NCBI GenBank assembly: GCA_016861085.1
Contig: BOKR01000001.1
Span: 451,271-515,270, forward strand
Source: Patescibacteria group bacterium
GTDB lineage: Bacteria; Patescibacteriota; Microgenomatia; UBA1400; PJMF01
Reading direction: 5' to 3'
Length of the DNA stretch: 64,000 bases
The notes under the pieces: generated by a model
Database searches by the model: none
Seen by the model: the letters and a program-made list of their open reading frames with translations, nothing else
What the model was told of the DNA's origin: nothing
Shown here: in pieces, positions 17,871 through 64,000 of the stretch
How the letters are laid out: each line of letters starts with the position of its first letter
Position numbering within the stretch: position 1 is the stretch's first letter
Position numbers and translations under genes: made by a program

Positions 17871-19871
17871 TTAAAAGAATGTCTCGTAGGTTGTGTCTTT
17901 TTTAACCTCGATGATTTCTTGACCACCAGTGATATCCATCAGGTTTTGGACAGATTCAATACCACCTTGTTTCCAAATGTTCACCTTGTAGTCAGTCTGG
18001 TTTTCGTAAGGCACTGTATAGGTGAATGAGAGTTTGGCAGACCCAAGTGGTTCAAGTGTAAAAAAGCCATCAATTACAGTGAAGCCATTCTCATCATACG
18101 TTTTTGCTTCTTCCAAGAATCCTTGTGCTTCGACAAGTTGCGAACCCTGAGGCACATATAATCTGGTCCAATCTTTTAAGGTAGAATTTAAGCACAATAA
18201 ACCTGCCTCAAGGTTACAGTTATCAGCTTTGTGATTATTTTTGTAGGTAATTTCGACAGTTTTAGTAATCATTCCATCAACTGGAACTTCAGTTACTGTT
18301 TGTTTGACTTCATAGGTAATAAAAAGATTTGATTTTGCACCAGCTAGGTTTGCATTCACAATCCCAAGAAAATCTTCACCATTTTTTGGTGGAGTCATTC
18401 TGCCGGCAACATTGGCAAGTTCAGCTGCATTTTGTGCATCTTGATCAATAAAGTAGAACTGTGCATGTCTATTTTGAATGCTCTCAAATCCAGTCTTAAA
18501 CAATTCTGGCCAGGTTTGCTTTGGTGCAGTATAAGCCTTGGTTAACAATGAGCGCATTAGAGGCCCTAAAATACCTTTTCTATCTTCTCTCAAGTATGGT
18601 GTTGGTCTAGTAATGATTTCAGATAAGATATAGATAATCTGTGGGCAGTCACAACGAGTATCGTTTTCCGCAGTAAATGTACCGTACCCGGGAACCTCGA
18701 CTGGACCTAACACTTTCATTAGATTGGTCAAAAAATGGGTATCAACAGAAATGATCCCGTCAATATCCTGTGGTTCACCTTTCACAGTTTTGTAGTTCTC
18801 AAAAAAGAGATCCATTGCTATCTTAAAGTCTGGAGAGATGTTCATATCTCTAAGATTAAAATATCTTTCGGTTGTTAAATAACGGCCGAGCTCTTCGGGG
18901 ATAGCAATATTTTTGGTGAACTTTTGATCTAACTCATAAATATCGTCAGATTTTTCTGCTTCTACTTTACCGTCAGTGACGTTAATGATTGCATAAGCAG
19001 TTAAAAAGCCTCCTGTTGGGCGCAATTCATTATCATTTTGGAAAAGAATAAGATACTTCTTTTTTTGCCCACCAGAGCCAGCTACTTTTGGTAGTTGTTC
19101 AATCACTGGACGATACTCAACTAATCCATCGGCAGCTCCTGCACTCATCTCTTGGGCCATAAGGATGTACTCTCTCACTGGAATTCCTTTGAGTGTCTCT
19201 GGGTATCTTTTAGCATTGATGCTACCAAGTTCTGATTTAACTGTATTTAAATCAGTGCCAATGTCATCAAGGATGGGTGATACTTTTTCAAGTGTACCGA
19301 GAATGACCTTTAGGCGGTCTTCAGTTGTACCACCGGTGAATTCTGCACCAGCAAAACCTAAAACATCTGCATACGGGGTCACAGCGGTAACAGATTTTTT
19401 AGCAGCACTCAGTCCCGCCTCAGCAGCATTAAGACCATGTAATCCATCTTTATAATAGCCACTGGCAATAGGAACTATAGAATAAAAACCTAGCTTTTGA
19501 TATGTATTTTTGACAGTCTGAAACTCTGTCTCAAGTTCATTGAGCGTTTTTTCAGCTTCCGGCAAATTTTGGGCTTTAAATAGATCATAGGTAGTTTGGG
19601 CTTTAGCTTTGAGTGGTATAACCTGAGCTTGGAGTTCTCGAGCTACTGCGTAAGTATACACACCCATGATAGTGAGTACGAATGTGAGTACGAGCACTAC
19701 AACGATTCCACCCATGAGAACAGGTTTTTGTTTCAATTTCTGAACTAGCGTTCCACGACGAGATCTACTCTCACTTGTAACTGAGTTTTCGTTTATTTGG
19801 TACTCAAACGAATCTACAGAGGTAGTAACAGAAGTATCTTTAAGTTCGGTTTCTTTTTCTAGCATACTCAA
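17871..19871 (-). CDS. Membrane-anchored extracytoplasmic protein, DUF4012-like
   Basis: 666 aa. An N-terminal cytoplasmic segment of about 55 aa is followed by one TM (VLMGGIVVVLVLTFVLTIMGVY). It contains LILFQNDNELRPTGGFLTAYAIINV, which I recall as the DUF4012 hallmark (RPTGGF). It heads the glycosylation locus next to the initiating transferase. Confidence 0.45.
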   Translation of the reverse strand: MSMLEKETELKDTSVTTSVDSFEYQINENSVTSESRSRRGTLVQKLKQKPVLMGGIVVVLVLTFVLTIMGVYTYAVARELQAQVIPLKAKAQTTYDLFKAQNLPEAEKTLNELETEFQTVKNTYQKLGFYSIVPIASGYYKDGLHGLNAAEAGLSAAKKSVTAVTPYADVLGFAGAEFTGGTTEDRLKVILGTLEKVSPILDDIGTDLNTVKSELGSINAKRYPETLKGIPVREYILMAQEMSAGAADGLVEYRPVIEQLPKVAGSGGQKKKYLILFQNDNELRPTGGFLTAYAIINVTDGKVEAEKSDDIYELDQKFTKNIAIPEELGRYLTTERYFNLRDMNISPDFKIAMDLFFENYKTVKGEPQDIDGIISVDTHFLTNLMKVLGPVEVPGYGTFTAENDTRCDCPQIIYILSEIITRPTPYLREDRKGILGPLMRSLLTKAYTAPKQTWPELFKTGFESIQNRHAQFYFIDQDAQNAAELANVAGRMTPPKNGEDFLGIVNANLAGAKSNLFITYEVKQTVTEVPVDGMITKTVEITYKNNHKADNCNLEAGLLCLNSTLKDWTRLYVPQGSQLVEAQGFLEEAKTYDENGFTVIDGFFTLEPLGSAKLSFTYTVPYENQTDYKVNIWKQGGIESVQNLMDITGGQEIIEVKKDTTYETFF

Positions 19872-19896
19872 CAGTATATCAAAAATATGGTAGTAA

Positions 19897-20517
19897 TTAC
19901 CACTTGGAAATCATTGCTTGCGGTGTTTTGAATAAAATTGTGATGTCCGTAACTATTGATCTTTTTTTAGCGTAATCAGCATCCATTTTTGCTCTGACAT
20001 TAAACGGCACTTCATTTCTACCAGAAGTTTGCCAAGGTCCAGTGATTCCTGGTTTGACAGACAAAATTAAGTCTTTGTACTTTTTAGTTTCTGGATATTT
20101 TTGTGTTTGTTCATCAAGCTCTTTTTTTACATATGCTCGTGGGCCAACCATGCTCATTTCACCACGAATAACATTATATAACTGTGGAAATTCATCAATT
20201 GTGAGAGATCGTAGTGCTTTTCCTAGCTTGGTAATTCTTGGGTCATTCTCAATTTTCCAATCACCTTGTTTAAATTTTTTAAGTAAAGACTTATTGTGTT
20301 TATGCAAAATTTCATCAGCATTTGGAATCATTGAACGAAACTTAAAGAGCTCAAACTCTTTGCCATTTAAGCCAACTCGTTTATGTTTGAATAAAATAGG
20401 TGAACCGGAATCAAGATAGATCATGAGTGGAACTATTATCCACACGGGAAGAAATATGATCATCAATATGAGGGCAACAGTAATATCAAGAATTCGTTTT
20501 TGTTGTGTGTAATTCAT
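19897..20517 (-). CDS. Monotopic polyprenyl-phosphate sugar-1-phosphate transferase (PglC/WbaP C-terminal-domain type, 'bacterial sugar transferase' family)
   Basis: 206 aa. ILDITVALILMIIFLPVWIIVPLMIYLDSGSPILFKHKRVGLNGKEFELFKFRSM and PGITGPWQ are signature motifs of the PglC/WcaJ family. Confidence 0.85.
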   Translation of the reverse strand: MNYTQQKRILDITVALILMIIFLPVWIIVPLMIYLDSGSPILFKHKRVGLNGKEFELFKFRSMIPNADEILHKHNKSLLKKFKQGDWKIENDPRITKLGKALRSLTIDEFPQLYNVIRGEMSMVGPRAYVKKELDEQTQKYPETKKYKDLILSVKPGITGPWQTSGRNEVPFNVRAKMDADYAKKRSIVTDITILFKTPQAMISKW

Positions 20518-20519
20518 AT

Positions 20520-21623
20520 CTACAAATATTCTTTCTTATCTTCTTCTTTGAGTCGCTCAACAAATTTTTTGACGTCTTGACTCTGAGATTTTGGTATTAT
20601 CATCAAAATCTCACCTGTGTCAATAACAATCATGTCATTAACCCCAAGTATGGCCACTAATTTTCCATCGGCATGAATAAGATTGTTCTGCGAACCGATA
20701 GCAAGCACTTTTCTTGTGGCGTCATCACCAATGACTACGTTTCCGGCAAGATCTTTCTTTTCAAGATCATATACAACTTTCCAATCTCCAACGTCATCCC
20801 AGCCGAAATCACCAGGGATTAAAACTAGGTTGGTTGCTTTTTCTGAAATTGCATAGTCAACAGAGATTGATTCAGCTTTATCATAAATTGCAGGTAGTGC
20901 TTCATGGAACTTCTGTCCTTTGAGGTCTTCTAGTCCTGCTGTAAGCTCATACATAGTATGCATATGCGTTTGAAAAGCTCTTTGTAGCACGCCACTTGAC
21001 CAGACATACATATTTGCATTCCAAAAGTATTTTCCAGTAGAGATAAATGCTTTTGCAGTTGCTTCGTTAGGCTTTTCAGTGAAACTTGCTACCTTGAATA
21101 AAGAGAGACCTTGTCCTAGCTTCATTAAATCATCACCAATCTTAATATAACCAAACCCTGTTGCAGGTCTATTTGGTGCAATACCGACTGTAACTAAAAA
21201 ATCATTTTCTGCAGCAGTTTGTGCTGCATGTTTCATAACTCTGATAAATTCTTGTTGATCAGTTACAATATGATCAGAAGCAAGATTGATACAGACAGCT
21301 TCTGGATCAATTGATTTAGCATAGAGTGCACCAGTAAGCATTGCTAAGGCAGTATCTCTTTTTAGTGGTTCGGCAATAATGTTAAGTAGTGGAACCTCTG
21401 GGAGCTGTTTGTGAACTTCATCCTTGTATAGATTGTTGGTAACAACAATAATTCTTTCCCAAGGAATAATTTTTGTAATCCTTGAAACTGCGATTTGCAT
21501 CATGGTTTCATTACCAATCAGCTTTAGAAACTGTTTTGGTGTTTTATTTCTAGATTTTGGCCAAAGCCTGGTTCCACCACCTCCAGCCAAAATAACTGCA
21601 AATGTGTGATCAAGATACGACAT
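20520..21623 (-). CDS. manC: Mannose-1-phosphate guanylyltransferase (nucleotidyltransferase domain only)
   Basis: 367 aa starting AVILAGGGGTRLWPKSRNKTPKQFLKL, the typical GDP-mannose pyrophosphorylase N-terminus. Confidence 0.75.
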   Translation of the reverse strand: MSYLDHTFAVILAGGGGTRLWPKSRNKTPKQFLKLIGNETMMQIAVSRITKIIPWERIIVVTNNLYKDEVHKQLPEVPLLNIIAEPLKRDTALAMLTGALYAKSIDPEAVCINLASDHIVTDQQEFIRVMKHAAQTAAENDFLVTVGIAPNRPATGFGYIKIGDDLMKLGQGLSLFKVASFTEKPNEATAKAFISTGKYFWNANMYVWSSGVLQRAFQTHMHTMYELTAGLEDLKGQKFHEALPAIYDKAESISVDYAISEKATNLVLIPGDFGWDDVGDWKVVYDLEKKDLAGNVVIGDDATRKVLAIGSQNNLIHADGKLVAILGVNDMIVIDTGEILMIIPKSQSQDVKKFVERLKEEDKKEYL

Positions 21624-21624
21624 A

Positions 21625-22836
21625 CTATCCTTTCAGTTCTTTCTCTACTCTCGCTTTAAACTCTCGTTTGAATTTTTCTACTGAGTATTGCATAGCATGA
21701 GCGCGCAGCTGCTGTGCATCAAAACTCAATGAATCTAGCTTTCCAAGAGCATATATCATTTCAGATACTGTTTCTTTTTTTATATGTATAGCGTGTACAC
21801 TGTCTTGCAATAATTCAGCAACACCGCTTGTATAAAATAGTATCACAGGTTTGCCAAAAATTCCTGCTTCAAGTCCGGTGATACCAAAATCTTCTTGTCC
21901 TGGCATTAATACAGCCTCGCAGTTTTTGAAGAGTGTATACGTTTCTTTTTGTGATAATTTCCCGGTAAATAGGATTGTTTTGTTTTCTTTTGTAGCTCTT
22001 TGCATAAATTGTTCAATTGATTCGGAATCCTCTTTAATACATTTTTCGCCTCCGGCAAGACTGTGTAGTTTTTGTTTGGATTCACCTTCTCCTACAATGA
22101 CAAGGGGCTTTTTAAGTTTTAGGCAGGCACTGATACTCAAATCAATTCGTTTGTATTCTACAAGTCTGGAAATGCTTAAGTAAAATTTTTTGACTCCGTG
22201 TAATACTGGAAGATCATTTATTTCTTTTTCAGACAAGAGAACTGAAACTGGCGGATAGATGACTGGTGCAGTTTTTCTGTTATAAAAGGTTTTTACCCGT
22301 TGTGCAACAAGTTTTGAAATAGGAACAATAACATCAGGTCTAGTGCTAGCAGACAAATCCCATTTTTTAATATGGTTTAGAATTTTTTCTACTAATTGCT
22401 TCATAATTGGTAGTTGCAAATACCATTTACTGCTCAAATAGGTTTCATGGTGTGAGTATAAGTAGCGGGTCGGAGTAAGCATATAGCAGATATGTTTCTG
22501 ATTTGGTTTGGTTAATACTCCTTTTGCTTCAGCACTGGTAACTGAAATCACAATGTCATATGCGGATAAGTCAAAAGATTCAAATGCAAGCGGCATCAGT
22601 GGCAGCAATACTTGATGTTTATCGTTGAAGAATGGGATTTTTTGTAGGAATGATGGAATTATTGTAATATTTTTTGCCCATTGAGCCTTTTGAGAATGAT
22701 AGACTGAGGTAAAAATCGGAGCTTGTGGAAAAAGCTCATGAATAGCAGTTAATACTACTTCTGCACCCCCATATGACGTGTTTACTCGATCATACACAAG
22801 AGCTACAGAAGGTGTGTGTTTTTGTTCTTGGTTCAT
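21625..22836 (-). CDS. Glycosyltransferase, GT4 family (GT-B fold)
   Basis: 403 aa. The C-terminus has the GT4 E-x7-E-like region FGITGLEAGIFGKPVILF. Confidence 0.7.
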   Translation of the reverse strand: MNQEQKHTPSVALVYDRVNTSYGGAEVVLTAIHELFPQAPIFTSVYHSQKAQWAKNITIIPSFLQKIPFFNDKHQVLLPLMPLAFESFDLSAYDIVISVTSAEAKGVLTKPNQKHICYMLTPTRYLYSHHETYLSSKWYLQLPIMKQLVEKILNHIKKWDLSASTRPDVIVPISKLVAQRVKTFYNRKTAPVIYPPVSVLLSEKEINDLPVLHGVKKFYLSISRLVEYKRIDLSISACLKLKKPLVIVGEGESKQKLHSLAGGEKCIKEDSESIEQFMQRATKENKTILFTGKLSQKETYTLFKNCEAVLMPGQEDFGITGLEAGIFGKPVILFYTSGVAELLQDSVHAIHIKKETVSEMIYALGKLDSLSFDAQQLRAHAMQYSVEKFKREFKARVEKELKG

Positions 22837-22840
22837 GAAA

Positions 22841-23944
22841 CTATTTTTTTTTCACGATATCTTGATACACTTCTAGGGTTTGTGCAGCCATTTTTTCCCA
22901 GGAGTAGTTTTTCACGAGTGCTTTTCCTTCAAAGTTTGTTTTGTCGGAACTTTGTTCTAATGCATGAACTGCTTGGATAAATGAAGCGGATGAGTGAGGA
23001 CTAAAGTAGAAGGCAGCATTTTGATAAATTTCCTTGAAAATAGGAATATCTGAAGCCAATACTGAAGTTCCAAATGACATGGCTTCGATTCCCGTTAGGC
23101 CAAACCCTTCAGAGAAGGATGGTTGTACTAACGCAGTAACTTGCTGATAGAGCTGTGCTAATTTTTCATCAGGAACATATCCTAAAAATTCTACTTGTTC
23201 CTCAACACCTTTTTGTTTCACATATGCTTTAACTCTATCCTGGAAGACACTTCTGGCGCCTGCAATTAGTAATCTATATTTTGGTAAGGATCCAAGAGAT
23301 TGTAAAATGAGATTTAAATTTTTGTGTGGATACAATGATCCAACATACAACAAAGTATTTTTTAGTTTTGGTTGGTGTGTTATTTTTTTGGGATCAGCAA
23401 TTTCTGCTCCTTCTTTTGTAACTACAATTTTTAATTTCGTCTTTGGATAAAATTTAATGACTGTATTTTTAATCGTTTCAGCTGGCACAAGTATTTTTTC
23501 AGCTTTATGAACAGCAATTCTAGTGACAAGTCTATAAAAAAGATATTTCATTACATATTTGATTGGACTGAGTGTCGTAACAGAACTACCTTTATATTCA
23601 TGCCACAACAGATCATGAATAGTGATAATCAGCTTACCTTTGTAAAAAATTGGAATATTAAAGTGAGGAACGTGTAGTAAATCCAGATTTTCTGCTGCAA
23701 ATTGTTTTGGAAGCTCAATTTGTTCTGCTAGGGTGTAATGTCTAATTGGGGTGTAAACAACTAAAAGATTTTTATTATTTCTATAGGGACCTAGAACAGC
23801 TGTTGCTTGCTCTTCATTATAGAAAAAGCATACAAAGATATCTCTTTTATTTTGTTTAAGCGCTTCTCTAAGAAGATTTTGTGTGTATCTACCGATACCT
23901 GCGTGTTGAGCGCCAGATAGTCGAGCATCGATTCCAATTCTCAT
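22841..23944 (-). CDS. Glycosyltransferase, GT4 family
   Basis: 367 aa with the C-terminal motif EGFGLTGIEAMSFGTSVLASD. Confidence 0.75.
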   Translation of the reverse strand: MRIGIDARLSGAQHAGIGRYTQNLLREALKQNKRDIFVCFFYNEEQATAVLGPYRNNKNLLVVYTPIRHYTLAEQIELPKQFAAENLDLLHVPHFNIPIFYKGKLIITIHDLLWHEYKGSSVTTLSPIKYVMKYLFYRLVTRIAVHKAEKILVPAETIKNTVIKFYPKTKLKIVVTKEGAEIADPKKITHQPKLKNTLLYVGSLYPHKNLNLILQSLGSLPKYRLLIAGARSVFQDRVKAYVKQKGVEEQVEFLGYVPDEKLAQLYQQVTALVQPSFSEGFGLTGIEAMSFGTSVLASDIPIFKEIYQNAAFYFSPHSSASFIQAVHALEQSSDKTNFEGKALVKNYSWEKMAAQTLEVYQDIVKKK

Positions 23945-23970
23945 ATCATTTATTATACTCTATATACGAA

Positions 23971-23995
23971 ATCGCAGGGAGTTATTCCCTGCGAT
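23971..23995. terminator. Strong 10-bp GC-rich hairpin between the Cys-rich protein gene and the downstream GT4 gene (possible intra-operon terminator or attenuator, or an RNA-stability element)
   Basis: ATCGCAGGGA, loop gttat, then TCCCTGCGAT. On the minus strand only a weak U/A-rich tract follows; on the plus strand it is followed by ATTCTATTTTTAATTT. Confidence 0.35.
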
Positions 23996-24023
23996 ATTCT
24001 ATTTTTAATTTAAGCTGCAATTT

Positions 24024-30728: not shown

Positions 30729-30734
30729 GATAGT

Positions 30735-32889: not shown

Positions 32890-32898
32890 AGTTGTAGT

Positions 32899-43235: not shown

Positions 43236-43244
43236 GTAAATCTT

Positions 43245-50462: not shown

Positions 50463-50471
50463 ATAGATTCT

Positions 50472-54887: not shown

Positions 54888-54895
54888 AAAAAGCT

Positions 54896-58189: not shown

Positions 58190-59670
58190 ATTTCTTTGAT
58201 TATAGCATTGGCCATAGTATCAATTAATAGATTTCTTGGTTGGGGTGATAATGCTGCTAACTCTGGTGATGTAGCTGTGTTGATAAATTTTTTCTTATAG
58301 TACAAAAGGTATCTTAAGACTTCTTCAAGCACTGTTGTTTTTTTTATATTGCTTATCATTTTTAAAGCTTCTTTACATTCATTTTGAGAGGTCACAATGT
58401 AACAGGCATTACAAGGACTATACCAAGCTGAAGCACTAAAGGTAAGCACTGGTTTACCCATAATAAGCGACTCCCAGCCACTACTACCAGTTAATGTAAC
58501 AGTACACTGAGAATGTTTGATGAGATCCTGAGAGCTAGTATCTAGTGAAACTAATCTAATATTTTTATATTGATTGATTTTTTCGTAAAATTCTTTAGTT
58601 CTAAAGTTCATCTTTCTAGTATCAGTCCTTGAGAACTGGTTTGGATGTTCTTTCACATACAACAACCAACCAGTGGGAAGAGATTTTGAAAGTATATCTA
58701 TTGCTAATAGCTGATTCTCAAAAATGTCACCTTCTGGCATGCTAGTTCTTTCTGGCTGAAAGTGTAGTGCAAAGTAGACAAATTTTTTGTTAACTTGCAC
58801 TTGCTTTGCTGTTTTATTATAAAAATTAAATAATGCTTTGTTTTTGAAATAGTATTGGAATATCATTAAATAGTATCCAAACCAGTTTGTTGGTTTTTCC
58901 ATGTATGTAGGACTAAAATAAACTCTTTCGAATGGATTATGAATGAGAGAAAACAGTGCTTTGATGGTTGGAATATCGATAATTGCTTTAAAAAAACTGG
59001 AATTATTTTGTTTTGTAGCTGTCTTATTATCTTGAATGTTAATTTTCATTAAGATGCTTTGCTGAAAGATCTGCGAAAACTGTCTTTCTCCAAGCTTCAT
59101 TTTTAATTCTTTAAAGTTGTTGTCAGAGAGGTATGTTGAAGGAATTTTTTTAAAGTTATTGTAATCATTAGTGATAAGGGCTGTATCATCAAGCAAAGTT
59201 TCTCTCACGATAATACATTTAATATTGAGCTGTTTTGCTAAAGCAAGCACAATATTTCCGTATCCAAGGTGTGGAACTCTTGGAAAAATAATCCTTTTTA
59301 TTTTCTCTTTTTCTAGAAAGTGCTTCCAAAATAAGAGGAGTTCATAGTATTGCTGTTTTCTGAATTGAACTGTTTTTGGATAAAAACAAGTTCTATCTGT
59401 AATGCTTAAGTATAAGCTTTCGAGCTCAAAGTTCTGGTAAATGGTCTTTTTTGATAAGCTTTTTGGGTTATTCTTATTGATTCCATTTATTTTATCTGCA
59501 AAGTGAAATTGTTTTTCATCTATGATTTTTATGTTTGAAAATTCTTTTTTATTTCTATAAAGATCAGGAAAAGTTGTAACAATGTGGGTGATTGGGCAGT
59601 CTTTTTTTACAAGCGCTTCTACCACATCCCTGTAATAGTTATCGTTAAATTCAAGGAGCAATATGCTCAT
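58186..59670 (-). CDS. Capsule-polysaccharide biosynthesis family protein (Capsule_synth, KpsC/KpsS/LpsZ-like ulosonic-acid transferase)
   Basis: 494 aa. LLYVKEHPNQ...(about 40 aa)...VTLTGSSGWESLIMGKPVLTFSASAWY resembles the HP motif and C-terminal block of KpsC/KpsS. It is assigned from memory of the motif only. Confidence 0.35.
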   Translation of the reverse strand: MSILLLEFNDNYYRDVVEALVKKDCPITHIVTTFPDLYRNKKEFSNIKIIDEKQFHFADKINGINKNNPKSLSKKTIYQNFELESLYLSITDRTCFYPKTVQFRKQQYYELLLFWKHFLEKEKIKRIIFPRVPHLGYGNIVLALAKQLNIKCIIVRETLLDDTALITNDYNNFKKIPSTYLSDNNFKELKMKLGERQFSQIFQQSILMKINIQDNKTATKQNNSSFFKAIIDIPTIKALFSLIHNPFERVYFSPTYMEKPTNWFGYYLMIFQYYFKNKALFNFYNKTAKQVQVNKKFVYFALHFQPERTSMPEGDIFENQLLAIDILSKSLPTGWLLYVKEHPNQFSRTDTRKMNFRTKEFYEKINQYKNIRLVSLDTSSQDLIKHSQCTVTLTGSSGWESLIMGKPVLTFSASAWYSPCNACYIVTSQNECKEALKMISNIKKTTVLEEVLRYLLYYKKKFINTATSPELAALSPQPRNLLIDTMANAIIKEI

Positions 59671-59713
59671 AGTAGCTTTCTAAAAAATTTGGTAGGTGGA
59701 TACTGTGAGCTCA

Positions 59714-61123
59714 CTATTTGTTTACACAATTATAGTAAGATTCGTTTTCTAACTCTCCAAAATCACCATTTTTAATTGCTATATTTATTTCTGAGATTGC
59801 GTCAGATATTGTATGCTTTGCAGTAAACCCTAATTCTTTCTCAATTTTATCAAAAGATACTTGGTATGTTCGTTTATCAGTCACAGAGCTATTCTCTGCT
59901 TTGTGCAATTCTACTTTGGTGTTTGGTAGTACCTTTTTTACAACATCACCTATTTGTTTAATAGTAAAGTTTTGTTGGTTTGTTCCAACATTAAAAATAG
60001 TATTATCTATATTTTCAAATGACTTTTCTAAAACAGAAACATATGCTTGTGCTGCGTCAGCAACATGTAATAGTGGTCTCCATTGATCTCCACCAAAAAT
60101 ACTTATTTGTTTTTTTGTGGTTGCCATTTTGGCAAAAATATTAACAACTAAATCAAATCTCATTCTAGGAGAGTAACCATATAAAGTGCTCATTCTCATA
60201 ATGATTGGTTTAAAGTTTTCATCAGCAAGACTGAGAATAGCCTTTTCTGACTCAATTTTTGTTCGAGCATATAGAGAAACTGGGTTGAGATCAGAGCTTT
60301 CATCGAGTCTCTTTGAACCAACTCCGTATACGCTACAAGTTGAAGCAAAAATAAATTTATTGATTTGATAGTATTTACATGCTAACGCCAAAGTCATAGT
60401 TGCTAAGTAGTTAGTTGCAATAGTTTCTTGTGGGTATTTTGTACTGGCTGGATCTCCAACTATTGCAGCCAAATGAATAACAGAATCAACATTTTCAAGT
60501 GATTCATGCATTGTTTGTATATTACGGACGTCGCCTTTGATAAGCTCAAAATTAGGATCATTATATAAGTCAGAAATACTTGTGTCACCAAACTTAAGAA
60601 CATCTAGAACTCGCACAATGTAGCCTTTTTTTAAAAGTAGCCTAGATATTATTGAGCCTAAGTAACCTGCACCTCCAATGATCAAGACACGTCTAATTCC
60701 GGAATCTACGTTTGGAGTTTCTGGCTGAAAATTTAAAGAAATGTTATTTTTTGTCTGTGAATAACTCAAGATGTCGACAATTTGTTTTTTTTCGTTAATT
60801 ACTGGGATTTGTAGATAAAGAATTTGTTCGCTGATTTTTTCTTCATGTTCTTCAATATATTTAAGAACATTCTGGGTGATCTTTATTTTGCTCTGACCTT
60901 TTTTTACAGTAAGAGGACTCTTATTCATGATCTCAGCAACAGGAGCATTAATGTCAAATCCATTATTTAGAGCTCTTCTAATATCCCCTGGAGTAACAAC
61001 ACCTTTAAGAACATTGTTGTTATCTACTACAAAGACAATTCCCCAACCATTCGTATCAATTTTTTTCATGATACTTTTAGCAGCAGCATTTTTTCGGATA
61101 AAGAGTTGTTCTATGTTTTTCAT
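59714..61123 (-). CDS. CBS-pair domain fused to an NAD-dependent sugar epimerase/dehydratase (SDR)
   Basis: 469 aa. The N-terminal 130 aa form two CBS motifs. Then come the Rossmann motif RVLIIGGAGYLGSIISRLL and the catalytic YARTK. Confidence 0.75.
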   Translation of the reverse strand: MKNIEQLFIRKNAAAKSIMKKIDTNGWGIVFVVDNNNVLKGVVTPGDIRRALNNGFDINAPVAEIMNKSPLTVKKGQSKIKITQNVLKYIEEHEEKISEQILYLQIPVINEKKQIVDILSYSQTKNNISLNFQPETPNVDSGIRRVLIIGGAGYLGSIISRLLLKKGYIVRVLDVLKFGDTSISDLYNDPNFELIKGDVRNIQTMHESLENVDSVIHLAAIVGDPASTKYPQETIATNYLATMTLALACKYYQINKFIFASTCSVYGVGSKRLDESSDLNPVSLYARTKIESEKAILSLADENFKPIIMRMSTLYGYSPRMRFDLVVNIFAKMATTKKQISIFGGDQWRPLLHVADAAQAYVSVLEKSFENIDNTIFNVGTNQQNFTIKQIGDVVKKVLPNTKVELHKAENSSVTDKRTYQVSFDKIEKELGFTAKHTISDAISEINIAIKNGDFGELENESYYNCVNK

Positions 61124-61225
61124 AATGTAGCCTTGATACTACATCAGACTATATAAATTTTGCAATACATATTTCAAGTATAGCTTGTTGTAGGTGACTG
61201 TTAATCAAGTTAGCTGAGTGGTAGA

Positions 61226-62779
61226 ATGGTGAAACGAATGAATAAACTTCTTAAAAACAGTATTTACCTTTCACTATTCACTGTTATTTCTCTACCTGCT
61301 TCTTATGTAATTAGACTTATTTTATCTCAGCATCTTTCACTATCTGATTTTGGACTATTATATGCACTTATTGGTTTTTTTAGTATGGTTCAATCTTTTA
61401 ATGACCTAGGATTTTCCGAAACTCAAGCATACTTTATCCCAAAATATATTGAGCAAAAGAGAGAGGACAAGATAAAAGCTGTAGTTAAGACTCAATTATT
61501 TAATCAGTTATTCACAACATTCCTGATTGGTTTAGTTTTGGCTATATTTGCGGAATGGTTTGTTACGACAATTTTTCACTCTCCAAACGCAACTAACCTT
61601 TTTAGATTATTTATCTTAGCTTTTATTGGAAAAGATTTTTTACAAAATACAAAGATGCTTTTCTTCGCCTATCAGGAAGGAAAATTTCATGGCTCTCAAG
61701 AACCACTTCGAATCTTTTTAACACTTTTTTTACTCATCATTGGGGTAGCACTTTTTAAGGTAGATATTTTATTTGTTGTTTGGACATGGGTAATTGTGTA
61801 TGGAGTTTTAGCACTTCTTTATTTTATTTTGTTTGTGATTCGCTATAAAAAGATTTTACAAGCAAAGCATTATCCTATGAAAGAAATATATAAGGAATTT
61901 TTTCCTTTTTTGGTACCAACTTTATTAGCAAATAATGCTGGAGTCATGTTTTCTGCAGGAACAGAAATCTTCTTAGCTTATTTTAAAGGAACTGCAGATG
62001 TTGGACTATATAATATTGCTAAGCCAATTTCTAATCTAGCTTTGGCAATAACTACTCCGATAGCAAATTTGCTTAAACCACACGTTTCTCAGATAGATGA
62101 ACAAAAAAATTACGAATCAGTGGAAAAACTTATTAGTATTACAATAAATGCTGGAGTATTTTTATTACTACCATTTTCTATAACTTTAGCGTTTTACGCT
62201 AAAGAAAGTATTGTTTTTCTATTCGGAAGTAAATATGTTGCTGCTACTCAAGCACTTCAATTTATCTCTTTTGAGATCGTTCTAAATATATTAAGTCTTT
62301 TTATATTTGGCATTATTTTTGGTTTGGGTTTACAAAAAAGTAGAGCAAAAATAATCTACCTTTCTTCTGCTATAAGCTTGGTTTTTTCTCTTATTTTAAT
62401 TCCCAGATTTGCATCTGTTGGTGTAGCATTAGCAAACCTTGGATATGCGTTAACAGCAGTTATTGGTGGACTATATATCATTAGGCAGAAAATTCCTTTT
62501 TCTTTTCCTCTCTCAAACTATCTTAAGATGCTAATTCTTTCTATGATTCTTATCTTTAGTCAGGTCTTGCTTAAATTTATTTCACCTTTGGAACTTTCAC
62601 AACAGTTGTTGCTTTTTATACTTAAGGCAGCAGTTGGTCTTTCACTTTATTATGGAATCGGTATTTTTATATTTAAAATTGTTGATATTCGTTTTGTAAC
62701 TAAATTGATTTTTCCTTCGATCCCTGCTAGAGTACAAATATTAATTGCAGCCCTGAAAGGCAAACAACAGGTGTTTTGA
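61226..62779 (+). CDS. wzx: Polysaccharide biosynthesis protein / oligosaccharide flippase (MOP superfamily, Wzx-like)
   Basis: 517 aa with 12-14 predicted TM helices and Wzx-like topology. It lies between the sugar-modification genes and neuA. Confidence 0.65.
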   Translation: MVKRMNKLLKNSIYLSLFTVISLPASYVIRLILSQHLSLSDFGLLYALIGFFSMVQSFNDLGFSETQAYFIPKYIEQKREDKIKAVVKTQLFNQLFTTFLIGLVLAIFAEWFVTTIFHSPNATNLFRLFILAFIGKDFLQNTKMLFFAYQEGKFHGSQEPLRIFLTLFLLIIGVALFKVDILFVVWTWVIVYGVLALLYFILFVIRYKKILQAKHYPMKEIYKEFFPFLVPTLLANNAGVMFSAGTEIFLAYFKGTADVGLYNIAKPISNLALAITTPIANLLKPHVSQIDEQKNYESVEKLISITINAGVFLLLPFSITLAFYAKESIVFLFGSKYVAATQALQFISFEIVLNILSLFIFGIIFGLGLQKSRAKIIYLSSAISLVFSLILIPRFASVGVALANLGYALTAVIGGLYIIRQKIPFSFPLSNYLKMLILSMILIFSQVLLKFISPLELSQQLLLFILKAAVGLSLYYGIGIFIFKIVDIRFVTKLIFPSIPARVQILIAALKGKQQVF

Positions 62780-63462
62780 TGTCAAAAACAATAGCACTGA
62801 TTCCTGCTAGAGGTGGTTCACAGTCTATTCCGCGAAAAAACATTAAGTTATTGGGTAATAAACCTCTTGTTGCTTGGCCAATCGAGCTTGCTTTAAGTAT
62901 CCCTCAAATTGATAGAGTTATAGTTAGTAGTGATGATGATGAAATCATGACAATTGCTCAGAAGTATGGTGCTGAAGTTTTATTTAAACGACCTCAAGAT
63001 TTATCAGGCAGTGATGTTCCAACTTTACCGGTTTTACAACATGCGGTGAACTATTTACGTAAATCGGAGGGTTATTTTGCAGAGAACGTATTATTGCTCT
63101 ATCCTACAACACCTTTTTTGAAAAAAGAAAGAATTTTAGAAGGTATTGATTTGTTGAATGATGGAGCTGATAGTGTTATAGGAGTTAGAAAGATACGAGG
63201 CTATATATGGAAGAAAACTAAAAATAATGAAAACAAACTCATACCTTTTTATCCTCCAAAAAGAGTGAATAGACAAAAATTTGAGCACCTGTTAGAAGAA
63301 GTTGGTAATATTTACTTCATGAAAAGCTCAGTTTTAATAGAGCAAAATAGAATTGTTTCAGAGGAAAACTGCCAATTTATATTCGTAGGGCAAGATGAGA
63401 TACTTGACATAGATGAGCCGAGTGATTTTTTAGAAGCAGAAGAAAGATTAAGAAAGAATTAA
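62776..63462 (+). CDS. CMP-nonulosonic acid (N-acylneuraminate/pseudaminate) cytidylyltransferase family
   Basis: 228 aa starting IALIPARGGSQSIPRKNIKLLGNKPLVAWPIELA, the CTP_transf_3 (NeuA/PseF/KdsB-like) N-terminal signature. Confidence 0.8.
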   Translation: MMSKTIALIPARGGSQSIPRKNIKLLGNKPLVAWPIELALSIPQIDRVIVSSDDDEIMTIAQKYGAEVLFKRPQDLSGSDVPTLPVLQHAVNYLRKSEGYFAENVLLLYPTTPFLKKERILEGIDLLNDGADSVIGVRKIRGYIWKKTKNNENKLIPFYPPKRVNRQKFEHLLEEVGNIYFMKSSVLIEQNRIVSEENCQFIFVGQDEILDIDEPSDFLEAEERLRKN

Positions 63463-63463
63463 A

Positions 63464-64000
63464 ATGCAAAAGCAACAATTCATCCCTTTTTGTAGAGTTG
63501 AGTTAACCCAAGCAGAAATAACTGCTGTGACTGAGTGTTTAAGGTCTGGTTGGTTAACTATGGGAAATCAGGTTCAAAAATTTGAGCAACAGTTTGCTGA
63601 GTATGTTGGAGTCAAGTATGCCATCAGTGTTAATTCTTGTACAGCAGCTCTAGATCTTGCTTTATTAGCTCACAATATTGGTAAGGGTGATGAGGTTTTA
63701 GTTCCTTCTTTCACGTTTGTTGCTACTGCAAACGTGGTGATTCATGCAGGAGCAAAACCAGTTTTTGTTGACATTGACAAAAACACGTTAAATATCGATC
63801 TTGAAGATATAGTCAAAAAAATAACAAAAAAAACAAAGGCAATCATTGTAGTTCACTATGCCGGATTACCGGTTGAGCTCACAAAAATTAAAAAGATTGC
63901 TAAAGAACATAATTTAATTATTATTGAAGACGCTGCTCATGCTGTTGGAAGTAAATATAAAGGCAAATACGTTGGTGCACACGGAAATACAACATGTTTT
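63464..64000 (+). CDS. DegT/DnrJ/EryC1/StrS family PLP-dependent sugar aminotransferase (N-terminal part, runs off the window)
   Basis: Starts at the ATG at 63464. SGWLTMGNQVQKFEQQFAEYVGVKYAISVNSCTAALDLALLA is a DegT signature (PseC/ArnB-like). Confidence 0.85.
   Translation, partial: MQKQQFIPFCRVELTQAEITAVTECLRSGWLTMGNQVQKFEQQFAEYVGVKYAISVNSCTAALDLALLAHNIGKGDEVLVPSFTFVATANVVIHAGAKPVFVDIDKNTLNIDLEDIVKKITKKTKAIIVVHYAGLPVELTKIKKIAKEHNLIIIEDAAHAVGSKYKGKYVGAHGNTTCF

What the first reader, a model, noticed from the sequence alone, without database searches (positions are those of the whole stretch)
17871..64000. A 46-kb glycoconjugate locus with an unusual concentration of GT-C-fold membrane glycosyltransferases and both Wzx/Wzy-type and ABC-type export machinery
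One continuous, mostly minus-strand locus holds:
- a PglC-like initiating phosphoglycosyl transferase;
- 6 GT4 and 3 GT2 enzymes;
- at least 6 polytopic GT-C-like proteins (26590, 36361, 43245 frameshifted, 45597, 47296, 52021);
- 2 Wzy/O-antigen-ligase-like paralogs, a Wzx flippase and a Wzm/Wzt ABC exporter;
- sugar-nucleotide enzymes (manC and UDP-xylose synthase in the locus, galU upstream; also a CBS-epimerase, neuA-like, degT);
- an O-acetyltransferase and an acetamidino-sugar module.

GT-C enzymes work on the outer face of the membrane with lipid-linked donors. Established examples are protein O-mannosyltransferases, oligosaccharyltransferases, ArnT and arabinofuranosyltransferases. Six or more in one locus in a small genome suggests either extensive protein glycosylation or several distinct lipid- or wall-linked glycopolymers. 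The S/T/N-rich giant surface protein encoded a few kb upstream is an obvious candidate acceptor, so the locus could be a surface-protein O- or N-glycosylation system. It carries both a Wzx/Wzy route and an ABC route. That differs from the characterised Campylobacter pgl and Gram-positive S-layer glycosylation paradigms.
Basis: partly seen in the sequence, partly recalled or inferred. Interest (0 to 1): 0.8.

Follow-up and report, generated by a model that had tools for sequence, protein, structure and literature searches.

The report
Patescibacterial cell-envelope glycan assembly gene cluster
A tiny-genome Patescibacteria bacterium devotes more than 46 kb to building surface sugar polymers, including six membrane enzymes that add sugars outside the cell; the gene list is real and partly conserved in related bacteria, but the design resembles known cell-wall polysaccharide factories, and nothing shows that it decorates the neighbouring giant protein.

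Summary
The inventory holds. Between 17,871 and 64,000, 31 of 39 ORFs are glycan-related. They include a small PGT, ManC, six GT4, three GT2, two Wzy_C paralogs, Wzx, Wzm/Wzt, a WbuX/HisF/HisH amidino module and a nonulosonic-acid module that runs past the window end.

All six polytopic proteins are GT-C-like:
- Two hit Pfam PMT_2 directly.
- One is PMT_2 through its orthologs.
- The frameshifted one rests on profile links only.

None has the WWDxG oligosaccharyltransferase motif.

The stretch is not one uninterrupted system: ruvCAB sits inside it, and it splits into three modules. The middle module (Wzm/Wzt, GT2, GT4, three GT-C families, a Wzy_C fusion) recurs in about 20-25 of 29 related loci, mostly labelled Patescibacteria. 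Distant members of one GT-C family are fused to polyprenyl-phosphate-sugar-synthase-like GT2 domains.

Best reading: envelope glycopolymer assembly, with cytoplasmic synthesis, ABC or Wzx export and extracytoplasmic GT-C elaboration. This parallels Gram-positive rhamnose-polysaccharide and mycobacterial arabinogalactan loci. Glycosylation of the giant protein is untested.

Verdict: a new variant of a known kind, of moderate interest.

The parts
17871..19871 (-). DUF4012 protein (666 aa, one N-terminal TM). Function unknown. First gene of module A, next to the PGT.
   Evidence: Pfam PF13196, E 3e-26. One TM by hydropathy. No NCBIfam hit.
19897..20517 (-). Small monotopic phosphoglycosyl transferase (206 aa, PglC-sized). 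Initiates a glycan on polyprenyl phosphate.
   Evidence: Pfam Bac_transf, E 2e-60. NCBIfam EPS_sugtrans C-terminal domain, E 2e-70.
20520..21623 (-). Mannose-1-phosphate guanylyltransferase (ManC); supplies GDP-mannose.
   Evidence: Pfam NTP_transferase plus ManC beta-helix. NCBIfam GMP_PMI, E 3e-90, 303 bits, below its 373-bit cut-off.
21625..26580 (-). Module A cytoplasmic glycosyltransferases: GT4 (21625-22836), GT4 (22841-23944), an unknown 161-aa Cys-rich TM protein (24024-24509), GT2 (24506-25387) and GT4 (25387-26580).
   Evidence: Pfam Glycos_transf_1 and Glycos_transf_2.
26590..28029 (-). GT-C1: polytopic PMT_2-type GT-C glycosyltransferase (479 aa). Acidic motif DLLDW follows TM1.
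   Evidence: Pfam PMT_2 E 3.7e-13 and PMT E 7e-7. Nine hydropathy peaks. hhalign to the 36361 family 95.8%. Motif.
28026..29765 (-). Wzy_C-type membrane protein (579 aa); polymerase or ligase candidate. Paralog of the N-terminal half of 39870-43235.
   Evidence: Pfam Wzy_C E 2.4e-5, below the gathering score. 41% identity over 551 aa to 39870. Shared motif.
29775..31373 (-). GT2 (29775-30728) and hexapeptide-repeat acyltransferase (30735-31373). End of module A.
   Evidence: Pfam Glycos_transf_2 E 5e-27 and Hexapep E 3e-15.
34024..36359 (-). Two GT4 glycosyltransferases (34024-35238 and 35235-36359). Start of module B.
   Evidence: Pfam Glycos_transf_1. Homologs found with the cassette in 6-8 related loci.
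36361..37860 (-). GT-C2: PMT_2-type GT-C (499 aa) with an LDE motif after TM1.
   Evidence: Pfam PMT_2 E 1.5e-9. Present in 14 of 29 related loci. hhalign 96% to the 45597 family. Motif.
37892..38920 (+). NAD-dependent sugar-nucleotide dehydratase or epimerase (SDR). The specific UDP-xylose synthase assignment is not confirmed.
   Evidence: Pfam Epimerase E 4e-51. All NCBIfam hits are below their cut-offs.
39870..43235 (-). Wzy_C fusion protein (1121 aa) in three parts: an N-terminal Wzy_C domain; a degenerate 47296-type GT-C remnant with its extracytoplasmic domain (about residues 514-860); and an unannotated C-terminal domain of about 260 aa.
   Evidence: Pfam Wzy_C E 5e-13. BLAST to 47296. 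hhalign 100%, E 5e-53, with the central TM core deleted and the loop-1 motif lost. Orthologs of 1100-1270 aa in 9 loci.
43243..44972 (-). GT-C3: polytopic GT-C-like protein with a C-terminal NTF2-like (MecA_N) domain. It is frameshifted in an A7 run near 43575; the first ORF is 43521-44972 (483 aa).
   Evidence: Frame continuation. Intact homologs of 560-580 aa. Same allele in 3 runs. hhalign 93.8% to the 52021 family. MecA_N in 8 of 15 members; one PMT_2 and one GT-C_AftD hit. PBP3/PBP2a N-domain hit, E 9e-8.
44965..45600 (-). Conserved 211-aa single-TM protein of unknown function, adjacent to GT-C4 in close relatives.
   Evidence: No Pfam hit. Homologs at 57-74% identity in 6 loci, next to the 45597 homolog in most.
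45597..47306 (-). GT-C4: GT-C-fold glycosyltransferase (569 aa, DUF6311-related). Conserved DWxD motif (D40, D43) follows TM1.
   Evidence: No Pfam hit at E<=0.01. Homologs carry PF19830. AF2 pLDDT 90.6, pTM 0.91. Foldseek top hits DPY19, STT3, AglB, PglB, ArnT, probability 1.0. Invariant residues.
47296..48924 (-). GT-C5: GT-C-fold glycosyltransferase (542 aa) from a family with no Pfam model. Invariant R34, N39, P42, D45 after TM1. C-terminal extracytoplasmic domain carries a Cys pair.
48924..51899 (-). GT4 (48924-50462, 512 aa) and GT2 (50472-51899, 475 aa): the conserved cytoplasmic glycosyltransferase pair of the core cassette.
   Evidence: Pfam. Both present in 21 of 29 related loci, usually ordered GT2>GT4>GT-C5.
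52021..54123 (+). GT-C6: divergent PMT_2-type GT-C (700 aa) with an invariant S-Q-D-G (D40) motif after TM1. Transcribed divergently, with Wzm/Wzt downstream.
   Evidence: No direct Pfam hit. NCBIfam LA_3751/3752 putative glycosyltransferase, E 2.8e-10, below its cut-off. 5 of 10 orthologs hit PMT_2, best 5.8e-8. Invariant residues.
54108..55627 (+). Wzm (ABC-2 permease, 54108-54887) and Wzt (ATPase, 243 aa, 54896-55627, too short for a C-terminal carbohydrate-binding domain): glycan ABC exporter.
   Evidence: Pfam ABC2_membrane E 9e-17 and ABC_tran E 2e-21. Found with the cassette in 10-11 loci.
55633..58189 (-). Acetamidino-sugar module: WbuX N-acetyl-sugar amidotransferase, a HisF-like cyclase subunit and a HisH-like glutaminase subunit.
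   Evidence: NCBIfam WbuX, 343 bits, above its 203-bit cut-off. Pfam His_biosynth and GATase.
58186..64000 (.). Module C, a nonulosonic-acid-type sugar pathway: a 494-aa PseG/Capsule_synth-like protein (-), CBS-SDR epimerase/dehydratase (59714-61123, -), Wzx flippase (61226-62779, +), PseF-like cytidylyltransferase (62776-63462, +) and a partial DegT aminotransferase (63464-64000, +). It continues beyond the window with NeuB, GNAT and others.
   Evidence: Pfam. NCBIfam PseF, 150 bits, below its 206-bit cut-off. Translation of the window end. Downstream genes on contig DRR258780_905.

Best explanation
The region is a composite cell-envelope glycan island of a Patescibacteria bacterium: the strain deposited as BroJett025, whose nearest relatives carry Microgenomates-group names. 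It consists of three modules rather than one system.

Module A (17.9-31.4 kb)
- A PglC-like PGT starts a glycan on polyprenyl phosphate.
- ManC, three GT4, two GT2 and an acyltransferase extend and modify it in the cytoplasm.
- A PMT_2 GT-C and a Wzy_C protein act on it outside the membrane.

Module B (34.0-55.6 kb), the evolutionarily conserved core
- GT2, GT4 and two further GT4 build a lipid-linked chain on the cytoplasmic face.
- Wzm/Wzt exports it.
- Up to five GT-C enzymes (36361, 45597, 47296, 52021 and the frameshifted 43243-44972 gene) then extend or branch it on the outer face, using polyprenyl-monophosphate sugars.
- The 1121-aa Wzy_C fusion polymerises the product or ligates it to its final acceptor. 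That fusion carries a catalytically degenerate copy of the 47296 extracytoplasmic module, so both proteins probably recognise the same polymer.

Module C (55.6 kb to beyond the window end)
- It makes an acetamidino and/or nonulosonic-acid sugar as a CMP-activated precursor.
- It supplies the only Wzx in the window.

Shown: the gene identities, the GT-C fold of two families, the homology links among all six, the synteny, and the GT2 fusions.

Inferred: the donors, the order of steps, the final acceptor (most likely a wall-linked or membrane-anchored glycopolymer in a monoderm envelope), and cooperation between the modules.
For: Gene inventory
-.

GT-C status
- Direct PMT_2 hits for 26590 and 36361.
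- AF2 models of 45597 and 47296 with pLDDT 90.6 and 92.4.
- 5 of 10 orthologs of 52021 hit PMT_2.
- hhalign links all six families at 58-96% probability. Controls against the Wzy, Wzx and Wzm families all score 0.7% or less.
- Every family has a conserved acidic motif just after TM1.

Conserved cassette
- Homologs of 47296 occur in 25 of 29 related loci, GT4 and GT2 in 21 each, the Wzy fusion in 21, 52021 in 12 and Wzm/Wzt in 10-11.
- The order recurs: [Wzt<Wzm<GT-C6<] GT-C4> GT2> GT4> GT-C5> Wzy fusion>.

Donor type
- Six distant 47296-family members of 729-780 aa carry an N-terminal GT2 domain.
- I read the polyprenyl-phosphate-sugar-synthase motif (IPVYNEE...DGStD...GKG...DGDxQH) in five of them.
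- NCBIfam scans of three of those five gave AglJ, PgfS, ArnC and PpgS as best matches.

Wall-directed hint
- The 43521 family ends in a MecA_N NTF2-like domain, as found at the N-terminus of PBP2a and PBP3.

Precedent
- Gram-positive Rha-CWPS loci combine an ABC-exported backbone, a Wzx flippase and several GT-C enzymes (PMC9574508).
Against: - No glycan structure, expression data or biochemistry exists for this organism.
- No GtrB/Ppm1-type polyprenyl-phosphate sugar synthase and no GtrA flippase is encoded in the window. By my reading, the three GT2 all carry the F-x-Y-x-ED-x-D motif of WbbL-type enzymes rather than the synthase motif, and their NCBIfam hits are generic. The source of monophosphate donors is therefore unaccounted for.
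- No LCP-family ligase and no Wzz-type regulator was found in the window.
- Only one PGT and one Wzx were seen, and they lie in different modules. The three-module split is therefore partly my construct.
- Tight packing with ruvCAB shows that adjacency in this streamlined genome does not prove functional linkage.
- GT-C3 rests on profile evidence only, and it is frameshifted.
- Wzy_C proteins include protein O-oligosaccharyltransferases, so a protein acceptor cannot be excluded.
Confidence: 0.5

Rival explanations
1. Surface-protein O-glycosylation system. Lipid-linked glycans made by the PGT and the GT4/GT2 enzymes are exported by Wzx or Wzm/Wzt. The Wzy_C proteins, acting as PglL/WsaB-type O-oligosaccharyltransferases, transfer them en bloc to an S-layer or giant surface protein. 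The PMT_2-type GT-C enzymes add single sugars to Ser/Thr.
For: - The Wzy_C family includes protein O-OTases, and Geobacillus S-layer glycans are ABC-exported and then transferred by a WaaL-like enzyme (my own knowledge, not tested here).
- Two Wzy_C paralogs are present.
- An S/T-rich 2374-aa Kelch/fn3 protein with an N-terminal signal/TM segment lies 1.2 kb upstream of the locus.
- CPR genome papers have speculated about glycoproteins or a glycosylated S-layer (PMC5220378).
Against: - None of the six has the MIR or PMT_4TMC domains of GT39 protein mannosyltransferases.
- The giant protein is in a separate operon, with a MacB-type ABC system, behind recO.
- No homolog of it lies within 10 kb of the cassette in 29 related loci.
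- The MecA_N-like domain of the GT-C3 family points to the wall rather than to a protein.
- The position where I recall a conserved His in WaaL/PglL is Asp in all members of this Wzy_C family (the canonical residue is from memory).
- Fold similarity among GT-C enzymes does not report the acceptor type.
Confidence: 0.25
2. Chance juxtaposition. The 46 kb holds several unrelated glycan pathways, for example a wall polysaccharide, a capsule-like heteropolymer and a pilin or flagellin-type nonulosonic-acid modification. They are neighbours only because the genome is small and co-directional. There is no functional unit larger than the conserved GT2-GT4-GT-C cassette.
For: - ruvCAB and unrelated small ORFs are embedded with intergenic spacing of roughly 0-45 bp.
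- Modules A and C have essentially no homologs beside the cassette in related loci.
- Promoter and terminator scans are at background and do not define operons.
Against: - 31 of 39 ORFs over 46 kb are glycan-related, and another 10 kb of the same kind follows. That is far denser than a random sample of a genome of about 1.17 Mb would give.
- Only one PGT and one Wzx are present for all modules, which suggests shared use.
Confidence: 0.2
3. N-linked protein glycosylation by a PglB/AglB/STT3-type oligosaccharyltransferase among the polytopic proteins.
For: STT3, AglB and PglB are among the best Foldseek matches of both models.
Against: - No WWDxG motif occurs in any of the six proteins.
- There is no STT3 Pfam hit. 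The only related signal is a weak archaeo_STT3 NCBIfam hit for 26590 (E 2e-4, 20 bits against a 450-bit cut-off).
- The same models match ArnT, PMT, ALG and Aft enzymes equally well.
- The giant protein has only 3 D/E-x-N-x-S/T sequons.
Confidence: 0.03

Closest known systems
Rhamnose-rich cell-wall polysaccharide loci of lactococci, streptococci and enterococci (rgp/cwps/gac/epa; 'dual-chain' assembly)
   Same: - A monoderm envelope.
- One locus combines cytoplasmic GT2/GT4 enzymes and an ABC (Wzm/Wzt-like) exporter for a backbone with a Wzx-type flippase.
- Several poorly conserved GT-C enzymes polymerise or attach side chains outside the membrane, and are recognisable only by fold (PMC9574508).
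   Different: - No rml genes or rhamnosyltransferase signatures were found here.
- No GtrB/GacI-type C55-P-sugar synthase, GtrA or LCP ligase is in the window.
- There are more GT-C genes: six, plus a remnant.
- Wzy_C proteins are present, one of them fused to a GT-C remnant.
- The GT-C families are lineage-restricted. The 47296 family has 653 representatives at E<=0.001 among 1.84 billion proteins.
Mycobacterial arabinogalactan/LAM cluster (Rv3779-Rv3809c: GlfT1/2, Wzm/Wzt, AftA, EmbCAB, AftB); from my own knowledge
   Same: - A GT2-built lipid-linked chain is exported by Wzm/Wzt.
- It is then elaborated outside the membrane by about six clustered GT-C enzymes using polyprenyl-monophosphate sugar donors.
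- AftA, AftB, AftD and Emb are among the structural matches.
   Different: - No DprE1/E2 or UbiA-type donor pathway, no Glf and no mycolate context.
- Sequence identity to the Aft/Emb structural matches is only about 8-14%.
- Wzy_C proteins and a Wzx are present here.
S-layer protein O-glycosylation clusters of Geobacillus stearothermophilus and Paenibacillus alvei (WsaP/Wzm/Wzt/WsaB; WsfP/Wzx/Wzy/WsfB); from my own knowledge
   Same: An initiating PGT, GT2/GT4 enzymes, ABC or Wzx export, and a Wzy_C-type enzyme acting at the final step.
   Different: - Those systems have no GT-C enzymes, and a defined S-layer acceptor gene lies nearby.
- Here six GT-C enzymes dominate, and no acceptor is genetically linked.
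Three-component Gtr-type periplasmic glycosylation (GtrA/GtrB/GT-C; ArnC/ArnT; CsbB/YfhO)
   Same: - A GT-C enzyme uses a polyprenyl-phosphate sugar made by a GT2 enzyme.
- Distant 47296-family members are physically fused to such a GT2 domain.
   Different: In this window the GT2 and flippase partners are missing. The GT-C genes sit in an assembly cassette instead of forming a stand-alone modification operon.
Campylobacter pgl N-glycosylation locus
   Same: A small PglC-like PGT and cytoplasmic GT4 enzymes. PglB appears as a structural match for the GT-C fold.
   Different: - No WWDxG oligosaccharyltransferase motif.
- No PglK-type flippase was found in the Pfam scans.
- Multiple GT-C enzymes instead of one.

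Membership tests
GT-C glycosyltransferase superfamily (fold level) | Polytopic membrane protein with about 8-13 TM helices and N-in topology. | tested here: met
   Six to nine strong hydropathy peaks in each of the six proteins. The AF2 models of 45597 and 47296 show more than 10 long helices. The N-termini are Lys/Arg-rich.
GT-C glycosyltransferase superfamily (fold level) | Conserved acidic (D/E) motif in the first extracytoplasmic loop. | tested here: met
   Conserved or observed acidic residues just after TM1:
- 45597 family: D43 invariant, D40 nearly invariant.
- 47296 family: D45 invariant, E41 nearly invariant.
- 43521 family: D53 invariant.
- 52021 family: D40 invariant, D37 nearly invariant.
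- 36361 has LDE and 26590 has DLLD.
GT-C glycosyltransferase superfamily (fold level) | Structural similarity to solved GT-C enzymes. | tested here: met
   - 45597 model: Foldseek probability 1.0 to DPY19, STT3, AglB, PglB and ArnT.
They are supported by PMT_2 hits or profile links only.
GT-C glycosyltransferase superfamily (fold level) | Uses polyprenyl-phosphate-linked donors on the outer face of the membrane. | not testable with these tools
   Indirect evidence only: GT2 domains of the polyprenyl-phosphate sugar synthase type are fused to distant 47296-family members.
STT3/PglB/AglB oligosaccharyltransferases (GT66) | WWDxG motif in the C-terminal extracytoplasmic domain. | tested here: not met
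   A regular-expression search found no WWDxG in any of the six proteins. No STT3 Pfam hit.
Protein O-mannosyltransferases (GT39, PMT) | PMT domain together with MIR domains in loop 5 and a PMT_4TMC C-terminal domain. | tested here: not met
   Only PMT_2, or the N-terminal part of PMT, is matched in 26590 and 36361. No MIR or PMT_4TMC hits were found.
Wzx/Wzy-dependent polysaccharide pathway | An initiating PGT, a Wzx flippase, a Wzy-type polymerase and a Wzz/PCP chain-length regulator. | tested here: inconclusive
   - PGT present.
- Wzx present.
- Two Wzy_C proteins present, one below the gathering score.
- No Wzz/PCP domain found.
- PGT and Wzx are 40 kb apart.
ABC-transporter-dependent polysaccharide pathway | Adjacent Wzm (ABC-2 permease) and Wzt (ATPase), next to glycosyltransferases. 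| tested here: met
   ABC2_membrane and ABC_tran at 54108-55627. The pair is syntenic with the cassette in 10-11 loci. Wzt is 243 aa, so it lacks a carbohydrate-binding C-terminal domain.
Gtr-type three-component glycosylation | A GtrB/ArnC-like polyprenyl-phosphate sugar synthase and a GtrA flippase encoded with the GT-C enzyme. | tested here: not met
   - By my reading, the window's GT2 enzymes carry the F-x-Y-x-ED-x-D motif of WbbL-type enzymes. Their NCBIfam hits are generic.
- No GtrA hit.
- The 225-aa GT2 beyond the window end is not similar to the fused synthase-type domains.
WbuXYZ acetamidino-sugar module | A WbuX amidotransferase with HisF-like and HisH-like partners. | tested here: met
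   WbuX scores 343 bits against a 203-bit cut-off. His_biosynth and GATase genes are adjacent.
Pseudaminic/legionaminic acid pathway | A dehydratase, aminotransferase, N-acetyltransferase, NeuB-type synthase and CMP-transferase. | tested here: inconclusive
   - PseF-like protein at 150 bits, below its 206-bit cut-off.
- Partial DegT in the window.
- NeuB, GNAT and an Epimerase_2-like gene lie downstream, outside the window.
- Which nonulosonic acid is made was not determined.

The most novel reading that the evidence does not exclude
The conserved cassette (Wzm/Wzt + GT2 + GT4 + GT-C4/5/6 + Wzy_C fused to a GT-C remnant) is the assembly line for a major envelope glycopolymer specific to this Patescibacteria lineage and not yet described. 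On this reading it is built largely outside the membrane by three GT-C families that have no Pfam or functional annotation. A new type of ligase/polymerase has borrowed the substrate-binding module of one of them. It would give a first genetic handle on what the envelope of these Patescibacteria is made of. The A7-tract frameshift in GT-C3 would then act as an on/off switch that varies the polymer.
Probability: 0.3. Interest if true: 0.7.

Novelty: new variant of a known kind. Interest (0 to 1): 0.5.

Why it matters
The envelope of Candidate Phyla Radiation (Patescibacteria) bacteria is essentially uncharacterised. [quoted passage not shown] These organisms are thought to live attached to hosts, so surface glycans are likely to matter for attachment and phage recognition.

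This analysis pins down a concrete, conserved gene cassette and contributes four things:
- It assigns a GT-C fold to two unannotated protein families.
- It finds a Rosetta-stone fusion pointing to polyprenyl-monophosphate sugar donors.
- It describes an unusual fusion of Wzy_C with a GT-C remnant.
- It corrects the impression that the architecture lies outside known paradigms. The logic matches Gram-positive wall-polysaccharide and mycobacterial arabinogalactan assembly.

The cassette gives testable targets: heterologous expression, metaproteomics of the anammox-reactor samples, and comparative genomics.

Tried and rejected
- Direct sequence searches of 45597, 52021, 36361, 26590 and the 1121-aa fusion against PDB sequences found nothing useful. 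Profile searches with the 47296 and 52021 families also found nothing. Fold-level methods were therefore needed.
- Pfam at E<=0.01 gave no hit for four of the six candidates.
- I looked for a GtrB/Ppm1-type synthase among the window's GT2 enzymes and in the 225-aa GT2 beyond the window end. None was found.
- The UDP-xylose synthase assignment for 37892 could not be confirmed.
- The promoter and terminator scan of 30-45 kb was at shuffle background and does not define operons.
- Literature searches for Patescibacteria/CPR with GT-C, mannosyltransferase or protein glycosylation, for BroJett025 and for DUF6311 returned nothing relevant.
- The afdb50 fold library was unavailable.
- A look-up of the TTG-start cytidylyltransferase failed because no gene with exactly that product is on record.
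- The giant protein could not be tested as an acceptor. Sequon counts are uninformative, with only 3 D/E-x-N-x-S/T sites.

Full report
**Source and context**

- The window is identical to part of Logan contig DRR258781_16092 (361,746 bp).
- Two of its proteins are identical to proteins named BroJett025_04710 and BroJett025_04740 of a 'Patescibacteria group bacterium'. Their longest contig is 1,173,889 bp.
- Homologs of the locus proteins come mostly from Patescibacteria genomes, many with Microgenomates-group names (Pacebacteria, Daviesbacteria, Woesebacteria). About half of the records carry 'Pseudomonadales' or 'Gammaproteobacteria' bin labels, which I take to be mislabels.
- GC content is 32-41%.
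- Upstream of the locus lie a class IV aminotransferase, a GalU-like nucleotidyltransferase, a class II aminoacyl-tRNA synthetase and a MacB-type ABC system. They are followed by a 2374-aa Kelch/fn3 protein with an N-terminal hydrophobic segment, then recO.

**Checking the observation**

- a 206-aa Bac_transf PGT;
- ManC;
- six Glycos_transf_1 (GT4) and three Glycos_transf_2 (GT2) proteins;
- two Wzy_C proteins, 41% identical over 551 aa;
- a Polysacc_synt Wzx;
- an ABC2_membrane/ABC_tran pair;
- a hexapeptide acyltransferase;
- WbuX (343 bits, above its cut-off) with HisF-like and HisH-like partners;
- a CBS-SDR protein;
- a PseF-like cytidylyltransferase;
- a partial DegT at the window end.

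By my count, 31 of 39 ORFs from 17,871 to 64,000 are glycan-related.

The discrepancies are these:

- ruvB, ruvA and ruvC (31843-34046) and four unannotated small ORFs lie inside the stretch.
- The 'UDP-xylose synthase' is only a generic SDR.
- The cluster continues at least 10 kb beyond the window, with DegT, NeuB, a GT2, a GNAT, methyltransferases and an Epimerase_2-like gene.

**Are the six polytopic proteins GT-C enzymes?**

Only 26590 and 36361 hit Pfam PMT_2 directly (E 3.7e-13 and 1.5e-9). The other four gave no Pfam hit, so each was tested separately.

45597:
- Its homologs carry faint PF19830 (DUF6311) hits.
- A 32-sequence alignment shows D43 invariant and D40 and W41 nearly invariant, directly after TM1.
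- The AF2 model has pLDDT 90.6 and pTM 0.91.
- Its 18 best Foldseek PDB matches are all GT-C enzymes: DPY19, STT3, AglB, PglB, ArnT and AftD, each with probability 1.0.

47296:
- None of the 120 homologs listed (of 179 found) has any Pfam annotation.
- R34, N39, P42 and D45 are invariant after TM1.
- The AF2 model has pLDDT 92.4.
- Foldseek gives STT3, AglB and ArnT, with TM-score 0.59 to ArnT.

52021:
- It scores E 2.8e-10 against an NCBIfam 'putative glycosyltransferase' model, below that model's cut-off.
- Five of 10 orthologs hit PMT_2, the best at 5.8e-8.
- An S-Q-D-G motif is invariant after TM1.

43521 (the weakest case):
- hhalign gives 93.8% probability over 371 columns to the 52021 family.
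- One homolog hits PMT_2 at 5e-4 and another hits GT-C_AftD at 8.5e-4.
- D53 is invariant after TM1.

Profile-profile comparison links all six families into one network at 58-96% probability. The same families score 0.7% or less against the Wzy, Wzx and Wzm families of the same locus. The links are therefore not an effect of membrane-protein composition.

**The frameshift**

- The 483-aa ORF at 43521-44972 continues in another frame after an A7 run (CAGAAAAAAATAC) to a stop at 43243.
- Intact homologs are 560-580 aa.
- The identical allele occurs in DRR258781, DRR258780 and SRR8466088, with 100% identity over 4.2 kb.
- It is therefore a property of the strain and not a read error. It could be a fixed pseudogene or an 'off' phase state.
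- The shifted part encodes an NTF2-like MecA_N domain, related to the N-terminal domain of PBP3 and PBP2a (E 9e-8; 8 of 15 family members).

**Architecture and conservation**

I searched the window proteins by tblastn against 29 related loci, each covering 10 kb on either side of a 45597 homolog. The results were uneven:

| Window gene | Related loci with a homolog (of 29) |
|---|---|
| 47296 (GT-C5) | 25 |
| GT4 48924 | 21 |
| GT2 50472 | 21 |
| 1121-aa Wzy_C fusion | 21 |
| 36361 (GT-C2) | 14 |
| 52021 (GT-C6) | 12 |
| Wzm / Wzt | 11 / 10 |

- Module A (17.9-31.4 kb) has only paralog-level matches, and most of module C (55.6 kb onward) has none. The giant protein has none at all.
- Gene maps show a recurrent order: [Wzt<Wzm<GT-C6<] GT-C4> GT2> GT4> GT-C5> Wzy fusion>.
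- The functional unit that evolution preserves is therefore module B, not the whole 46 kb.
- The 47296 family is small and lineage-restricted: 653 representatives at E<=0.001 among 1.84 billion proteins.

1. GT2 fusions.
   - Six distant 47296-family members (729-780 aa) carry an N-terminal GT2 domain.
   - Five of them show, by my reading, the polyprenyl-phosphate-sugar-synthase signature IPVYNEE...DGStD...GKG...DGDxQH.
   - The three of those five that I scanned against NCBIfam match AglJ, PgfS, ArnC and PpgS best.
   - This Rosetta-stone fusion argues that the family uses polyprenyl-monophosphate sugars.
2. The Wzy_C fusion.
   - Residues of about 514-860 of the 1121-aa protein are an unmistakable homolog of 47296 (hhalign 100%, E 5e-53).
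   - The central transmembrane core is deleted, including the positions of the invariant E152, K190, D346 and R348. The loop-1 motif is lost.
   - What remains is TM1, loop 1, TM2 and the C-terminal extracytoplasmic domain.
   - The Wzy_C enzyme thus carries a non-catalytic copy of the GT-C5 outer module, which suggests a shared substrate.

**Mechanism proposed**

- Shown: the gene identities, folds, homology links, synteny and fusions.
- Inferred:
  1. A lipid-linked chain is built in the cytoplasm by the GT2 and GT4 enzymes.
  2. It is exported by Wzm/Wzt. The Wzt is 243 aa, so it has no carbohydrate-binding domain.
  3. It is elaborated outside the membrane by the GT-C enzymes using polyprenyl-phosphate sugars.
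  4. It is polymerised or ligated by the Wzy_C fusion.
- Module A supplies a PGT-initiated, mannose-containing, acylated unit, with its own PMT_2 GT-C and Wzy_C paralog.
- Module C supplies an acetamidino and/or nonulosonic sugar and the only Wzx.
- The final acceptor is unknown. I favour a wall-linked or membrane-anchored glycopolymer (confidence about 0.5) for three reasons: the close parallels below, the MecA_N-like domain, and the absence of features specific to protein glycosyltransferases.

**Weak points**

- No GtrB/Ppm1-type synthase, GtrA, LCP ligase or Wzz is present in the window.
- Only one PGT and one Wzx were found.
- Adjacency means little in a genome where ruvCAB abuts glycan genes, with spacing of roughly 0-45 bp.

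**Comparison with known systems**

That is true for Campylobacter pgl. It is not true for Gram-positive rhamnose-rich cell-wall polysaccharide loci. Those loci pair an ABC-exported backbone with a Wzx flippase and several sequence-divergent GT-C enzymes (WpsI, WpsJ, CsdB, GacL) that are recognised only by predicted fold (PMC9574508).
- From my own knowledge, the mycobacterial Rv3779-Rv3809c region likewise clusters about six GT-C genes with Wzm/Wzt and GT2 polymerases.
- Canonical oligosaccharyltransferase membership fails: no WWDxG motif.
- Canonical GT39 PMT membership fails: no MIR or PMT_4TMC domains.
- Protein O-glycosylation through the Wzy_C proteins remains a live rival (about 0.25), because that family includes O-oligosaccharyltransferases. 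Nothing links it to the giant protein beyond proximity.

**Novelty and verdict**

- The components are known kinds.
- New are the particular conserved cassette, two GT-C families without annotation, the fusion of Wzy_C with a GT-C remnant, and the setting in a lineage whose envelope is uncharacterised (PMC5220378).
- The literature held here has nothing on GT-C enzymes or glycosylation in Patescibacteria.
- I rate it a new variant of a known kind, with interest 0.5.

Noticed in passing
window 31843-34046 (-): ruvB, ruvA and ruvC (Pfam E 1.6e-75, 3.7e-16 and 2.7e-36) sit in the middle of the glycan gene array, with only small gaps to the flanking glycosyltransferase and acyltransferase genes. 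Tight packing in this genome is therefore not evidence of shared function.
   Followed up: partly
window 43243-44972 (-), A7 run near 43575: The frameshift in GT-C3 lies in a homopolymeric A7 tract and is identical in three independent sequencing runs. This could be slipped-strand phase variation of a surface-glycan gene, or a fixed pseudogene.
   Followed up: partly
window 43243-43700 (-) and homologs P0168-P0181: The C-terminal domain of the GT-C3 family is an NTF2-like MecA_N domain, otherwise known from the N-terminus of PBP2a and PBP3. This is an unusual partner for a GT-C membrane domain and hints at a peptidoglycan-proximal role.
   Followed up: partly
window 39870-43235 (-), residues about 514-860 and 860-1121: The Wzy_C protein is fused to a core-deleted, motif-less copy of the 47296 GT-C family. 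A further C-terminal region of about 260 aa has no Pfam or PDB sequence match. Orthologs of 1100-1270 aa occur in at least 9 related genomes.
   Followed up: partly
window 28026-29765 and 39870-43235 (-); orthologs in L003-L019: All members share the motif IRLDTLWP...NPLxGxGYATL...EADSTDNNFLRTLGETGxLGF. As I recall it, WaaL-type ligases have a conserved His-Asn at the position that is Asp-Asn here. The canonical residue was not checked against a reference alignment.
   Followed up: no
proteins P0279, P0285, P0297, P0303, P0319 (distant 47296-family members): These are natural fusions of a GT2 domain resembling polyprenyl-phosphate sugar synthases to the GT-C body. P0278 carries a WbbL-like GT2 instead.
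   Followed up: yes
window 9540-16664 (-), with 9154-9543, 8399-9151 and 5874-8402 (-): The 2374-aa S/T-rich Kelch/fn3/purple-acid-phosphatase-N protein is followed on the same strand by a small TM protein and a MacB-type ABC ATPase/permease pair. This looks like its own operon, possibly for export or anchoring.
   Followed up: no
window 24024-24509 (-): A 161-aa single-TM protein with a Cys/Asp-rich stretch (GGCCGDCGDGCCSDGDHTHGDDEE) and a Lys-rich tail is embedded between GT4 and GT2 genes. It has no family hit.
   Followed up: no
L035 12239-21554 (beyond the window end, contig DRR258780_905): The glycan island continues with DegT, NeuB, a 225-aa GT2, a GNAT, a DUF4910/M28-like protein, three methyltransferases and an Epimerase_2-like gene. 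The true locus is therefore longer than 56 kb.
   Followed up: partly
window 38892-39758 (-) and 31374-31862 (-): Two ORFs without family hits: a 288-aa Lys/Glu-rich soluble protein and a 162-aa single-TM acidic protein. The first has a homolog only in the closest syntenic genome, L010.
   Followed up: no
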